Origin: Pirellulales bacterium
GTDB taxonomy: Bacteria > Planctomycetota > Planctomycetia > Pirellulales > UBA1268
DNA length: 64,000 nt
Assembly: GCA_044370415.1 (NCBI GenBank)
Contig: JBILVO010000001.1
Location: 819 to 64,818 of the forward strand
Direction: 5' to 3'
In this document: positions 41,095 through 45,335 of the stretch, one piece after another
How positions within the stretch are numbered: position 1 is the stretch's first letter
How the letters are laid out: each line of letters starts with the position of its first letter
The notes under the pieces: model-generated
The model's input: the letters and a program-made list of their open reading frames with translations, nothing else
Told to the model about the DNA's origin: nothing
Databases searched by the model: none
Program-made: the position numbers and the translations under genes

Positions 41095-42147
41095 TCACGG
41101 GAGGCCAGACAGACCGGACACGTCCGTGGGGTCCGCAAAGACCTGCAGCATGCCGCCCGGCAGCCGGCGGGCGAGCCGGTCGAGCCGGCCCTGCACCTTA
41201 TGCCGCGCATGCCGACCGGCCACGCGACGGATGGCCACGGCCGCGACCTGCCGCGGGTGGCGACGCGCGATCGCGGCGTAGACCTCCGGGTCCCGTTCGC
41301 CCGAGTCGCCCACCAGCAGGAACCTGCGGCCGGGAAAGTCGGCCATGATCTGCTCGATGATCCGCCGCTTCGAGTGCTTGCGGGACGGCAGCCGCCGCAA
41401 CGGCGTCGAATCCTTGAGACGAAAGAGCTTGAGATGCATCGAGCCGAAGGGGAGCTGCTCGTCCCGCAGGAAGCCGCACAGGCACCTGGCCAGCTGCCAC
41501 GGGCTCGCAGACACGTAGTGGAACACGGCCCCCTCACGCTCCCAGCCCCGGTAGACGTCCGCCATACCCGGCACGGCGGCGAATTCCCGCAGCAGCGTGT
41601 TGGCGAGCAGTTCCCTGCGGTCTGCGACGTTGGTCACCTTCACCGTGTCGTCGATGTCCGACACGACGGAAAGCCCCTGCTCGTCGATCATCTGGATGCG
41701 GCCGCTCGCGGACGGCGACGCGGCTCCGGGAGGGGCCGGCCACGCCGCTGCGGCGTCGGGCTCGACGATCGCCTCGTAGGACAGCCAGCGCGAGCCGCCA
41801 GCGGGGCCCCCGGCCAGGGCGTCGACCTCCGCCTCGTCGAGGTCGATGGTCCGCTGGAAATGCCCCACGCGGTCGGACGCCCCCGCCTCCACAAGCCGGT
41901 CGCCGACGCGGATCCGCACGGGCTCACCCGCCACCCGCTGGAAGAGGAAGGCGTCCGCCCGGCGCTGGAAGATGTCTGACTGCAGGTGGGCGTCGTCGAG
42001 TTCGAGCAGTCGCTTGATGACGCCGATAGCGAGCGTGCGGCGGCGGCTTTTCGGCGGCAGCGGCCGTAAGATCATGCCGGCGACATGAGCCCGCCAGCGG
42101 CTCTCGCCGGGAATCCGCCGTGCATAGGTGGGGAATGGGATGATCAT
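41095..42147 (-). CDS. App1-family (DUF2183) phosphatidate-phosphatase-like HAD protein
   Basis: ATG 42147. VVSDIDDTVKVT (DxDxT) .. YVSASPWQL .. FLLVGDSGERDPEVY. Confidence 0.7.
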   Translation of the reverse strand: MIIPFPTYARRIPGESRWRAHVAGMILRPLPPKSRRRTLAIGVIKRLLELDDAHLQSDIFQRRADAFLFQRVAGEPVRIRVGDRLVEAGASDRVGHFQRTIDLDEAEVDALAGGPAGGSRWLSYEAIVEPDAAAAWPAPPGAASPSASGRIQMIDEQGLSVVSDIDDTVKVTNVADRRELLANTLLREFAAVPGMADVYRGWEREGAVFHYVSASPWQLARCLCGFLRDEQLPFGSMHLKLFRLKDSTPLRRLPSRKHSKRRIIEQIMADFPGRRFLLVGDSGERDPEVYAAIARRHPRQVAAVAIRRVAGRHARHKVQGRLDRLARRLPGGMLQVFADPTDVSGLSGLP

Positions 42148-42225
42148 GCCACCGAGGGGACGGCAGTGAGGCAGCGGTCGGGGCGATCCCCCGTGGTCTC
42201 GTCGCGACGCCATCGTGGCCGGTGC

Positions 42226-42254
42226 TTGCAGAGACGCGGAACCCATCTTACAAC
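42226..42254 (+). promoter_or_regulatory. Promoter-like hexamers TTGCAG - 17 nt - TACAAC upstream of the 29-codon ORF
   Basis: Read directly. Followed by hairpin GCGACC-agttc-GGTCGC (42262-42278) and GGAGGA (42284-42289). Confidence 0.35.
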
Positions 42255-42293
42255 CTCTGCCGCGACCAGTTCGGTCGCCACCTGGAGGAACGC

Positions 42294-42383
42294 ATGGGAG
42301 TCAAGAAAACGGGCAAGGGCCGCCGCAAGCTGGGCCAGAAGAAGCGGCGGATGCGGGCCAAGATCCGCCACCGCAAGGGCTGA
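42294..42383 (+). CDS. Untracked 29-codon ORF encoding an extremely basic peptide MGVKKTGKGRRKLGQKKRRMRAKIRHRKG (possible bS22-like small ribosomal protein)
   Basis: ATG 42294 lies 4 nt after GGAGGA. 15 of 29 residues are Lys/Arg. TGA at 42381-42383 is followed at once by a 9-bp perfect stem. Confidence 0.5.
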   Translation: MGVKKTGKGRRKLGQKKRRMRAKIRHRKG

Positions 42384-42416
42384 CGGCTGCCGCGTCCGAC
42401 GGCAGGACGGCAGCCG
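42384..42416 (+). terminator. Stem-loop CGGCTGCCG ... CGGCAGCCG immediately after the small ORF
   Basis: Perfect 9-bp inverted repeat (42384-42392 / 42408-42416). No U-tract, so terminator function is uncertain. Confidence 0.3.
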
Positions 42417-42714
42417 CCCTTGGCGCCTCTGGAGCATGTCGGCCCGCGGAAGACATCGGACCGCGGAGAACATCCGCTGCCGCGTGCGGCGGCGCGCCGG
42501 ACCCGCGGTGCGGCGCACGTCCGCCGACCGTGCCGCAGATCTCCCGTGCCGGTCGTCTCGTCACGATCCGCACAGCTTCACGACCGCGACGTGATGGATG
42601 CGGCAGAGGTCGTCGCTTTTTCTTGCCGCGCCTCAGGCGTGGGGTAGTTTTGCGTGGAGTCCGGGCGTCGTCCCGTGACCCGCGGTGAGAAACCCCGGCC
42701 AGGAGATCCGTTCG

Positions 42715-43194
42715 ATGCGTGCCGATTCATGGTGTCGCGCCACGGCGCGGTGCATGCCGCTGGTGGTGCTGGCGGCGGCCGCCAGCCTTTCCGGATGCAA
42801 GACGCTCAGCGAGCGGTACATCGCGCTGGAGGTCTGGAAGTACGAAAAATGCTTCGGACATCTCCCCCCCGGCTTCGTGCCCCCCGGCACTGTGGCCGCG
42901 GCAGCCCCGATGGCCGCAGCGGCACCGCCGATGCAGCCGTGCGGACAGGCCTCCGCCTGCCCGCCAGCCGCGTGCGGCGGCGAGGCCGTGGGCGGCATGG
43001 CCGGCAACTGCGGCGGCTGTCAGGGCGGGATCGTCGAGGGCGGCCTGCCTGCCGGTGCCGTCGTGTCGCCAGGTGTCATGTCGTCAGGTGTGCCGTCCGG
43101 TCCCGGCGGGTCGCCGGGCGCGGGCATCCCGACGCCGGCGTCCGTCACCAGCAGCCGGCCCGTCGTGATCTCGGACGAGGTCGTGCTGCCGTAG
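42715..43194 (+). CDS. Cys/Gly/Pro-rich lipoprotein
   Basis: ATG 42715 lies 8 nt after AGGAGA. Lipobox in MRADSWCRATARCMPLVVLAAAASLSGC. Confidence 0.6.
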   Translation: MRADSWCRATARCMPLVVLAAAASLSGCKTLSERYIALEVWKYEKCFGHLPPGFVPPGTVAAAAPMAAAAPPMQPCGQASACPPAACGGEAVGGMAGNCGGCQGGIVEGGLPAGAVVSPGVMSSGVPSGPGGSPGAGIPTPASVTSSRPVVISDEVVLP

Positions 43195-45262: not shown

Positions 45263-45335
45263 GCGGGTGTAGCTCAGTTGGTAGAGCACCACGTTGCCAA
45301 CGTGGTTGTCGTGGGTTCGAATCCCATCACCCGCT
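45263..45335 (+). tRNA. tRNA-Gly (anticodon GCC)
   Basis: Manual cloverleaf: acceptor GCGGGTG/CACCCGC, D arm GCTC-AGTTGGTA-GAGC, anticodon arm CCACG-TTGCCAA-CGTGG, variable TTGTC, T arm GTGGG-TTCGAAT-CCCAT, discriminator T. No encoded CCA. Confidence 0.9.

What the first reader, a model, noticed from the sequence alone, without database searches (positions are those of the whole stretch)
42226..42416. Self-contained mini-gene for a 29-aa hyper-basic peptide (possible bS22-like ribosomal protein), absent from the ORF track
The unit is compact:
- TTGCAG-17-TACAAC hexamers at 42226-42254.
- A 6-bp hairpin at 42262-42278.
- GGAGGA at 42284-42289.
- ATG 42294 through TGA 42383, encoding MGVKKTGKGRRKLGQKKRRMRAKIRHRKG.
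- A perfect 9-bp stem immediately after the stop.

The KKRRMRAKIRHRK core resembles, from memory, the KKRRKRMAKKKHRK-type core of the ~30-aa bS22 / AURKAIP1-COX24-like peptides found in actinobacterial ribosomes. Such genes are routinely missed by annotation.
Basis: partly seen in the sequence, partly recalled or inferred. Interest (0 to 1): 0.55.

Follow-up and report, generated by a model that had tools for sequence, protein, structure and literature searches.

The report
Unannotated 29-residue hyper-basic Planctomycete protein gene
This is a real, separately transcribed gene for a 29-amino-acid, extremely basic peptide that is almost invariant across Planctomycetia; no database names it, it looks like the tiny ribosomal peptides bS22/eL41, and sequence alone cannot show that it is one of them.

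Summary
The ORF (42294-42383, +) is a genuine protein-coding gene.

- **Conservation:** over 270 database proteins and 72 genome loci, all Planctomycetota, end in the same 28-30 residues.
- **Selection:** codon-position entropy is 0.25/0.15/1.26 and pN/pS is 0.076/0.674, in genomes of 49-72% GC.
- **Start codon:** it alternates ATG/GTG/TTG. Some relatives have a stop codon directly upstream. The N-terminal extensions drawn by gene callers are unrelated to each other.
- **Expression signals:** A Shine-Dalgarno sequence is present in 67/72 loci.

The bS22 interpretation is neither confirmed nor excluded. The peptide matches no Pfam, NCBIfam or PDB entry. Its similarity to bS22, eL41, Thx and bL34 does not exceed that of composition-matched shuffles. 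However, the structurally proven bS22 proteins of Flavobacterium, Porphyromonas and Borrelia fail the same profile tests, so these tests cannot decide.

Best reading: an rRNA-binding ribosomal peptide of the bS22/eL41 kind, forming a new sequence family. It needs a Planctomycete ribosome structure or intact-mass spectrometry to settle.

The parts
42226..42231 (+). -35-like promoter hexamer TTGCAG, within the conserved GTGCTTGCAr
   Evidence: Sequence. TTGCAA/TTGAAA is conserved at this position in relatives. The combined promoter motif occurs in 38/72 loci, against 0.1% of background windows.
42244..42254 (+). Extended -10 element CATCTTACAAC (-10 hexamer TACAAC at 42249-42254)
   Evidence: The same 11-mer recurs in many relatives, ending 39-76 nt (median 49) before the start codon. 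It appears in all three reading frames of the mis-called N-terminal extensions (SYNL/ILQP/HLTT), so it is conserved as DNA, not as protein.
42262..42278 (+). 5'-UTR hairpin (6-bp stem GCGACC/GGTCGC, 5-nt loop)
   Evidence: It is present but not beyond chance (z = -0.8). Relatives often have some hairpin here, but the sequence is not conserved. Its function is inferred only.
42284..42289 (+). Shine-Dalgarno sequence GGAGGA, 4 nt before the ATG
   Evidence: GGAG/GAGG/AGGA lies 4-16 nt upstream of the start in 67/72 loci.
42294..42383 (+). CDS for the 29-aa peptide MGVKKTGKGRRKLGQKKRRMRAKIRHRKG (15 K+R, no D/E, 3.45 kDa)
   Evidence: Purifying selection: codon-position entropy 0.25/0.15/1.26 and pN/pS 0.076/0.674. 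275 representative proteins match at E<=1e-3; among the 150 best that are listed, all but one match at their C-terminus. AlphaFold2 predicts a helix over peptide residues 8-28, with block-mean pLDDT 82-94 over most of it.
42384..42416 (+). Post-stop hairpin (perfect 9-bp outer stem), probably a 3'-end or terminator structure without a U-tract
   Evidence: -23.3 kcal/mol, z = -1.7. Relatives mostly have a GC-rich hairpin just after the stop, but the sequences differ. A terminator role is inferred.

Best explanation
The locus is an independent, monocistronic gene. It has its own sigma-70-type promoter, a ~35-40-nt leader, a strong Shine-Dalgarno sequence, 29 codons and a hairpin after the stop.

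Its product is a 3.4-kDa peptide with a net charge of about +15. It consists of a short Gly-rich N-terminal tail followed by one long basic helix.

The most likely function is as a structural, rRNA-embedded ribosomal peptide of the same kind as bS22, mS38 and eL41. These are single basic helices inserted into an rRNA pocket. The most probable site is the 16S h44/h45 pocket at the subunit interface.

**Shown:**
- The gene is real and translated in this frame.
- It is under very strong purifying selection across Planctomycetia.
- Its expression signals are conserved.
- It belongs to no described family.

**Inferred:**
- Ribosome association.
- The binding site.
For: **Coding and frame**
- 120 of the 120 best word-index hits, and 149 of the 150 best representative hits, end in the same peptide. 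Their N-terminal extensions are unrelated.
- Position 1 alternates M/V/L, corresponding to ATG 58, GTG 10 and TTG 4. In-frame stops lie at or close upstream of the start in L056, L060, L062, L066 and L069.
- Third-codon-position entropy is 1.26, against 0.25 and 0.15 for positions 1 and 2. pN/pS is 0.076/0.674. Locus L043 differs from the window at 22 of 84 nucleotides with about one nonsynonymous change.
- The peptide is conserved in genomes of 49-72% GC.

**Own transcription unit**
- Promoter and Shine-Dalgarno conservation.
- The downstream gene has its own conserved promoter.
- Gene neighbourhood differs in distant relatives.

**Ribosomal-peptide-like properties**
- 29 aa, 52% K+R and no acidic residue, against 55-61% K+R and 28-33 aa for solved bS22 chains.
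- A single predicted helix.
- Non-basic residues G2, G7, G9, G14, M20, I24 and H26 are invariant. This argues for a fixed, specific binding site rather than bulk charge.

**Precedents**
- Actinobacterial and Bacteroidota/Borrelia bS22 show the same syndrome: near-invariance within a phylum, stand-alone genes, mis-called starts and no annotation.
- The literature reports the same for Borrelia (PMC10618245) and Flavobacterium (PMC7797042).
- The Borrelia authors explicitly predict further undiscovered bS22 genes with non-canonical starts.
- Planctomycetes group with Spirochaetes and Bacteroidetes in the ribosomal-protein tree (PMC3353972).
Against: - There is no experimental evidence of translation or ribosome association.
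- No profile or structure-database hit exists: Pfam, NCBIfam and PDB all return nothing at E<=10.
- Similarity to every small ribosomal protein tested is within the range of composition-matched shuffles, with z<=1.2.
- hhalign gives 0.6% against Flavobacterium-type bS22 and 1.4% against actinobacterial bS22. Those two validated types reach 14.5% against each other.
- The gene is not linked to translation genes in any locus examined.
- I could not test whether the same genomes also carry a canonical bS22.
Confidence: 0.6

Rival explanations
1. It is specifically the Planctomycetia orthologue or functional equivalent of bS22. It would sit between 16S h44 and h45 (with h2 and h27) and touch 23S H68-H70, and would have diverged beyond sequence recognition. 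This is a narrower version of the best explanation.
For: - It has the same length, charge, helicity and gene syndrome as solved bS22 chains.
- Position by position without gaps, it shares K16-K17-R18, R21, K23 and the R25-H26-x-K28 end with the Borrelia sequence given in the paper's supplementary alignment. This is a reading by eye.
- Validated bS22 types are themselves barely alignable. bS22 in Flavobacterium and Borrelia was assigned by position, not by sequence.
- bS22 occurs in Bacteroidota and Spirochaetes, which group with PVC bacteria in ribosomal-protein trees.
Against: - PF08213 and NF047430 give no hit.
- hhalign gives <=1.4%.
- Shuffle tests are not significant. The best is 0.6% of shuffles without composition correction, rising to 6% with it.
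- The four invariant N-terminal glycines have no counterpart in known bS22.
Confidence: 0.35
2. It is a ribosomal peptide at a different site. One candidate is a substitute for bL34, which a COG survey reports as lost in certain Planctomycetes. Another is the Thx site, since Thx is absent in Pirellula.
For: - Galperin et al. (preprint 10.1101/2021.01.31.429008) state that L34, a mostly buried protein, is lost in certain Planctomycetes.
- Yutin et al. report Thx absent in two Pirellula genomes.
- The peptide is a small hyper-basic protein of the right size class.
Against: - There is no similarity to bL34 beyond composition. The HMM score equals the shuffle mean, and SW z ranges from -0.2 to 1.0.
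- There is no Thx similarity and no PF00468 or PF17070 hit.
- Which Planctomycetes lack L34 could not be established, so complementarity is untested.
Confidence: 0.1
3. It is a non-ribosomal nucleic-acid-binding peptide, such as a protamine-like nucleoid compactor or a general RNA chaperone.
For: - Extreme positive charge and no acidic residues.
- No linkage to translation genes.
- From my own knowledge, not tested here: Planctomycetes have condensed nucleoids.
Against: - Charge-driven DNA binders evolve fast and are low-complexity. Here the non-basic residues and the exact length are invariant across orders and a 49-72% GC range. That pattern is typical of a fixed macromolecular pocket.
Confidence: 0.15
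4. It is a regulatory leader peptide or uORF, whose translation controls the downstream lipoprotein gene, or a Lys/Arg-sensing attenuator.
For: - It is a small ORF upstream of a same-strand gene that is syntenic in close relatives.
- It has many Lys and Arg codons.
Against: - The amino-acid sequence, not merely the act of translation, is under selection.
- A spacer of about 120-330 nt containing the downstream gene's own conserved promoter separates the two genes.
- Synteny is lost in distant relatives while the peptide is kept.
Confidence: 0.03
5. It is a chance ORF in GC-rich intergenic DNA, or a conserved non-coding RNA.
For: - Short ORFs are abundant in a 71% GC window.
- The hairpins are not above chance.
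Against: - Three-base periodicity of variation and pN/pS.
- Conserved start and stop positions.
- No Rfam family overlaps it.
Confidence: 0.01

Closest known systems
bS22 of Bacteroidota and Borrelia (Fjoh_1533, PDB 7JIL chain 5; P. gingivalis 9I5V chain 10; B. burgdorferi bb0822, 8FMW chain V)
   Same: - 28-31 aa, 57-61% K+R, no acidic residues and helical.
- Near-invariant within its clade.
- A stand-alone gene that is unannotated or 'hypothetical'; GUG start in Borrelia.
- No Pfam or NCBIfam hit in this tool.
- A C-terminal R-H-[KR]-K motif at the same positions, 25-28.
   Different: - No significant alignment: hhalign 0.6%, SW z 0.2-1.0.
- The MPxGKKRK...ATHKRKK signature is replaced by MG[VT]KK[TS]GKGRRK[LIV]G, with four invariant glycines.
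- The ribosomal location of the Planctomycete peptide is unknown.
Actinobacterial bS22 and mitochondrial mS38 (Pfam PF08213 COX24_C; NCBIfam NF047430)
   Same: - About 30 aa, hyper-basic, with a single His in a KKRR...HRK-like context.
- Ultra-conserved, and gene callers add spurious N-terminal extensions.
   Different: - The profiles do not match the peptide at E<=10, while the control scores 4e-12 and 3e-17.
- HMM scores are within the shuffle range.
- hhalign gives 1.4%.
- All 120 listed bS22 homologues carry a precomputed PF08213 hit. None of the 120 listed homologues of this peptide does.
eL41 (Pfam PF05162)
   Same: - A single basic helix of 25 aa. According to PMC10618245 it occupies the same small-subunit pocket as bS22.
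- MRAK[IW]R[HK][RK][KR] is shared by eye between the two sequences.
   Different: - No PF05162 hit.
- 4-8% of shuffles score as well and SW z = 1.2.
- eL41 is eukaryotic and archaeal.
bL34 (PF00468) and bTHX (PF17070)
   Same: - Small, very basic bacterial ribosomal proteins.
- L34 is reported missing in certain Planctomycetes and Thx in Pirellula, so those sites could be vacant.
   Different: - No sequence similarity beyond composition.
- The HGFRxRM signature of L34 and the GKGDxR[TS]xRGK signature of Thx are absent.

Membership tests
bS22 / mS38 (PF08213, NF047430) | Significant match to the curated family profiles | tested here: not met
   The window peptide and two variants give 0 hits at E<=10. 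The M. smegmatis bS22 control gives PF08213 4.2e-12 and NF047430 2.7e-17. Caveat: the solved Flavobacterium and Borrelia bS22 also give 0 hits.
bS22 / mS38 (PF08213, NF047430) | Sequence similarity to structurally validated members beyond amino-acid composition | tested here: inconclusive
   SW z is 0.2-1.0 against Fjo, Pgi, Bbu and Msm. For the bS22 HMM, 6% of shuffles score as well with the composition correction and 0.6% without it. hhalign gives 0.6-1.4%. The test has little power: Fjo against Msm, both validated, gives z = 0.5 and hhalign 14.5%.
bS22 / mS38 (PF08213, NF047430) | About 30-residue, >50% Lys+Arg, acid-free, alpha-helical peptide | tested here: met
   29 aa, 52% K+R and 0 D/E. 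AlphaFold2 predicts a helix over residues 8-28, with block-mean pLDDT 82-94 over most of it.
bS22 / mS38 (PF08213, NF047430) | Bound in the 16S rRNA pocket formed by h2/h27/h44/h45, contacting 23S H68-H70 (the criterion actually used to name bS22 in Flavobacterium and Borrelia) | not testable with these tools
   The criterion comes from PMC7797042 and PMC10618245. The literature searches returned no paper describing a solved Planctomycete ribosome, and no PDB chain matches the family profile.
bS22 / mS38 (PF08213, NF047430) | Only one such protein per genome (no canonical bS22 alongside it) | not tested
   This needs whole-genome six-frame scans. 
bL34 (PF00468) | Profile match and the HGFRxRM...GRxVLxRRRxKGR signature | tested here: not met
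   No Pfam hit. The L34 HMM score equals the shuffle mean, with 45% of shuffles scoring as well.
bTHX (PF17070 / TIGR04560) | Profile match | tested here: not met
   No hit. The Thx control scores 6e-18 and 8e-15. The family HMM against Thx scores below the shuffle mean.
eL41 (PF05162) | Profile match | tested here: not met
   No hit. The eL41 control scores 3.9e-12. 4-8% of shuffles score as well.

The most novel reading that the evidence does not exclude
The peptide is a previously unrecognised ribosomal protein of Planctomycetia. It would be either that clade's counterpart of bS22/eL41 at the decoding-site-proximal h44/h45 pocket, or a replacement for the bL34 reported as 'lost' there. In either case it would represent a third, independent sequence family of ~30-residue rRNA-embedded basic helices in bacteria.
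Probability: 0.55. Interest if true: 0.75.

Novelty: new variant of a known kind. Interest (0 to 1): 0.62.

Why it matters
**A testable prediction.** I found no paper describing a solved Planctomycete ribosome, and no PDB chain matches this family. If the peptide is ribosomal, this gives a concrete sequence and a mass (about 3.45 kDa before any Met removal) to look for.

**Wider significance for ribosomes.** It would extend the emerging picture that many bacterial phyla carry tiny, unannotated, rRNA-buried basic helices. These are bS22 in Actinobacteria, Bacteroidota and Spirochaetes, analogous to mS38 and eL41.

**Possible link to antibiotics.** In mycobacteria bS22 is reported to modulate aminoglycoside access to h44 (title of bioRxiv 10.1101/2023.03.31.535098). 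An equivalent peptide could therefore bear on antibiotic behaviour in Planctomycetes.

**Annotation.** The family shows a systematic error. Gene callers either miss it or extend it upstream to spurious starts, and many members start with GTG or TTG. A dedicated profile for this family would fix its annotation across many Planctomycetota assemblies.

Tried and rejected
- **Direct search with the 29-aa peptide:** I used the natural 53-aa extended ORF instead.
- **Pfam, NCBIfam and PDB phmmer/hmmsearch:** with the peptide, variants and the family profile, all returned nothing.
- **Intermediates linking the families:** I looked among 275 representative hits and 120+120 bS22-type hits and found none. 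The families are tight and separate.
- **Taxon names for Flavobacterium-type bS22 clusters:** I tried listing of cluster members, to test for complementary distribution within the PVC bacteria. No names were on record.
- **Which Planctomycetes lack bL34:** Table 2 of the preprint is an image, the supplement has no Planctomycete entries, and a search for the published version failed.
- **rpmH, Thx or bS22 signatures in the DNA held in the session:** none in 0.58 Mb, which is uninformative.
- **Literature searches:** the peptide sequence and 'bS22 + Planctomycetes' both gave no papers.
- **Leader-peptide, ncRNA and chance-ORF readings:** rejected on codon-level evidence.
- **GTG 42222 as an alternative start:** rejected. 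The upstream translation is not conserved, the conserved upstream elements are DNA motifs seen in all three frames, and relatives carry in-frame stops at or close upstream of the start codon.
- **Fold search:** not run, because matches to a single predicted helix would be meaningless.

Full report
**Observation**

Reading window 41800-42800 confirms every element at the stated coordinates:

- TTGCAG at 42226-42231, a 17-nt spacer, then TACAAC at 42249-42254.
- A 6-bp hairpin, GCGACC-AGTTC-GGTCGC, at 42262-42278.
- GGAGGA at 42284-42289.
- ATG 42294 to TGA 42383, encoding MGVKKTGKGRRKLGQKKRRMRAKIRHRKG.
- A perfect 9-bp stem, CGGCTGCCG 42384-42392 / CGGCAGCCG 42408-42416.

The mechanical ORF list shows the frame open from GTG 42222, giving 53 aa.

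Taken alone, the structural elements are weak evidence.

- The strict sigma-70 scan does not call the promoter.
- The 5' hairpin has z = -0.8. The 3' hairpin has z = -1.7.
- The 3' stem has no U-tract.
- The window is 71% GC, so short ORFs and hairpins are common.

**It is a real protein-coding gene**

A search with the 53-aa extended ORF returned 232 proteins. The 120 retrieved sequences all end in the same 28-29 residues. Their N-terminal parts are unrelated to one another.

A filter-free profile search of 1.84 billion representative proteins found 275 hits at E<=1e-3. The 150 best are listed, and all but one match at their C-terminus.

Every informative title is Planctomycetota. The taxa named include:

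- Pirellulales and Pirellulaceae
- Planctomycetaceae and Planctomycetales
- Two complete Planctomicrobium genomes
- Thermogutta

A few MAGs are labelled 'Ca. Kuenenia' or 'Chitinophaga'. They have 60-72% GC, and several of them carry the promoter motifs seen in the Pirellulales-labelled loci. These labels are therefore probably wrong.

Evidence for the start codon:

- The first codon is ATG in 58 loci, GTG in 10 and TTG in 4.
- The length is 28-30 aa in 71 of 72 loci.
- In L056, L060, L062, L066 and L069 an in-frame stop lies at or close upstream of the start.

Evidence for selection on the protein, across 71 distinct coding sequences:

- Entropy by codon position is 0.25, 0.15 and 1.26.
- Mean pN is 0.076 and mean pS is 0.674.
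- L043 differs from the window at 22 of 84 nucleotides with about one nonsynonymous change.
- Conservation holds in genomes from 49% to 72% GC.

**It is its own transcription unit**

The spurious N-terminal extensions contain the recurring strings SYNL, ILQP and HLTT. These are one DNA motif, ATCTTACAACC, read in three frames. VLAI and GACN are likewise GTGCTTGCAAT.

Aligning the upstream regions shows CTTG[CA]AA-N16-19-CAT[CT]TACAAC in most close relatives. It ends 39-76 nt before the start codon.

- The motif is present upstream in 38 of 72 loci, against 4 of 4537 background windows.
- More distant relatives have TATAAT- or TATACT-like -10 boxes instead.
- A Shine-Dalgarno sequence is present in 67 of 72 loci.
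- GC-rich hairpins follow the stop in most loci, but their sequences are not conserved.

The downstream gene is a lipoprotein-like ORF starting at ATG 42715. It has its own conserved promoter: TTTCTTGCCGCG at 42619-42630 and TGGGGTAGTTTT at 42640-42651. Terminator-like T-runs sit at 42600-42650.

In distant relatives the neighbouring genes are different and are not translation genes. In the window they are an APP1-type phosphatase, the lipoprotein-like ORF and panB.

**What it is not demonstrably**

The peptide and its variants hit nothing in Pfam or NCBIfam at E<=10. Neither the peptide nor the family profile hits any PDB chain. Positive controls worked:

- M. smegmatis bS22 scored PF08213 4e-12 and NF047430 3e-17.
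- Thx hit PF17070.
- eL41 hit PF05162.

All 120 listed actinobacterial bS22 homologues carry a precomputed PF08213 hit. None of the 120 listed homologues of this peptide does.

Composition-matched shuffle tests show no excess similarity:

| Comparison | Result |
|---|---|
| bS22 HMM against the peptide | 0.6 bits; 6% of shuffles as good (0.6% without composition correction) |
| Smith-Waterman against Fjo, Pgi, Bbu, Msm bS22, eL41 and Thx | z = 0.05-1.2 |
| bL34 HMM against the peptide | score equal to the shuffle mean |
| hhalign against Flavobacterium-type bS22 | 0.6% |
| hhalign against actinobacterial bS22 | 1.4% |

**Why that does not exclude a bS22-like role**

The Borrelia ribosome paper (PMC10618245) and the Flavobacterium paper (PMC7797042) named their ~30-aa proteins bS22 because of where they sit, between h44 and h45. 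They did not use sequence.

I verified those sequences in the PDB: 7JIL_5, 9I5V_10 and 8FMW_V. They too hit no Pfam or NCBIfam model. Flavobacterium against Mycobacterium bS22 is no better than shuffles (z = 0.5) and reaches only 14.5% in hhalign.

Both known bS22 types show the same syndrome as this family:

- Near-invariance within a phylum.
- Stand-alone genes.
- Non-canonical starts.
- Spurious N-terminal extensions in gene calls.

The peptide matches them in length, charge and lack of acidic residues. It is also predicted to be a single helix over residues 8-28, with block-mean pLDDT 82-94 over most of it. The Borrelia authors explicitly expect more such genes to be found.

**Mechanism proposed**

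I take the peptide to be an rRNA-embedded ribosomal peptide.

- The Gly-rich tail (G2, G7, G9 and G14 are invariant) would thread into RNA.
- The basic helix (K16-K28) has invariant M20, I24 and H26. These would provide the few specific non-ionic contacts.

That these non-basic residues and the exact length are invariant across orders argues for a fixed pocket rather than bulk charge neutralisation.

The h44/h45 pocket is the most likely site, by analogy with bS22. Two literature leads keep other sites open:

- L34 is reported lost in certain Planctomycetes.
- Thx is absent in two Pirellula genomes.

All of this is inference. Nothing here shows ribosome association.

**Rivals**

- **Nucleoid or RNA-chaperone peptide:** possible, but disfavoured by the pattern of conservation.
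- **Leader peptide:** excluded in practice by selection on the amino-acid sequence, the separate downstream promoter and the loss of synteny.
- **Chance ORF or non-coding RNA:** excluded. No Rfam family overlaps the locus.

**Novelty and verdict**

No paper in the library contains the sequence or links bS22 to Planctomycetes. No curated family covers it.

I classify it as a new variant of a known kind: tiny, hyper-basic, probably ribosomal peptides.

- The gene is certain.
- Ribosomal function is probable, at about 0.6.
- bS22 equivalence specifically is about 0.35.
- Interest is 0.62. This is a concrete, cheaply testable prediction of a new ribosomal component in a phylum for which I found no solved ribosome structure.

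Noticed in passing
window 42562-42582: The motif CACGATCCGCACAGCTTCACG (consensus GGCACGAYCCGCACAGCTTCACG) recurs in many related loci. In the loci that carry both elements it lies about 35-60 nt upstream of the downstream gene's -35 box, while the rest of the spacer varies from about 120 to 330 nt. It may be an operator or UP-like element of the downstream promoter, or the end of the peptide's transcript.
   Followed up: partly
window 42619-42651, and the ORF from ATG 42715 to 43194: The downstream lipoprotein-like gene (LSGC lipobox, no Pfam hit) has its own strongly conserved promoter, TTTCTTGCCGCG-N9-TGGGGTAG[TG]TTTGC. It also has a ~60-90-nt leader and an AGGAG Shine-Dalgarno sequence in many relatives. 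It is syntenic with the peptide gene only in the closer relatives.
   Followed up: partly
window 42600-42650: Five terminator-like hairpin-plus-T-run sites were called in the 41900-42900 scan, against 0.4 expected. Four of them (+ strand) cluster at 42600-42645, just before the downstream promoter. The peptide's mRNA may therefore end here, giving a 3' UTR of about 230-260 nt, rather than at the hairpin after the stop.
   Followed up: no
window 41095-42246 (-): The 383-aa APP1-type phosphatase ORF (PF09949, 1e-45), as listed, starts at ATG 42246. That position lies inside the conserved promoter of the peptide gene. Its true start is probably an internal Met (for example MIIPFPTY...), so the divergent intergenic region is larger than the ORF list suggests.
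   Followed up: no
L008, L013, L018, L026, L028, L037, L039, L058 ('Ca. Kuenenia') and L004, L029, L034, L045 ('Chitinophaga/ceae'): These MAG records have 60-72% GC, and several carry the promoter motifs seen in the Pirellulales-labelled loci. Their organism labels are almost certainly wrong or placeholders.
   Followed up: partly
L011, about 110-215 nt after the stop; L008, about 120-170 nt after the stop: Short tandem repeats lie in the variable spacer downstream of the peptide gene. L011 has CTTGCGGTATCTGCCGAGCACCCA about four times. L008 has TTTTCTCGGGGGATCA-like units.
   Followed up: no
L068 3734-3841: One locus encodes LGTKKTGKGRRKVGQKKRRMRAKFAIARNKLFADS. The family sequence is intact up to residue 23 and then diverges, which looks like a frameshift, either an assembly error or a pseudogene.
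   Followed up: no
proteins P0121-P0240 and P0342-P0461: Known bS22 genes are also systematically mis-called in public data. Actinobacterial bS22 genes are extended at the N-terminus. Many Bacteroidota-type entries read through the expected stop into C-terminal junk. None of the 120 listed Flavobacterium-type clusters carries a Pfam annotation.
   Followed up: partly
window 45263-45335 (+): A tRNA gene is the only Rfam match in the 64-kb window (74 bits).
   Followed up: no
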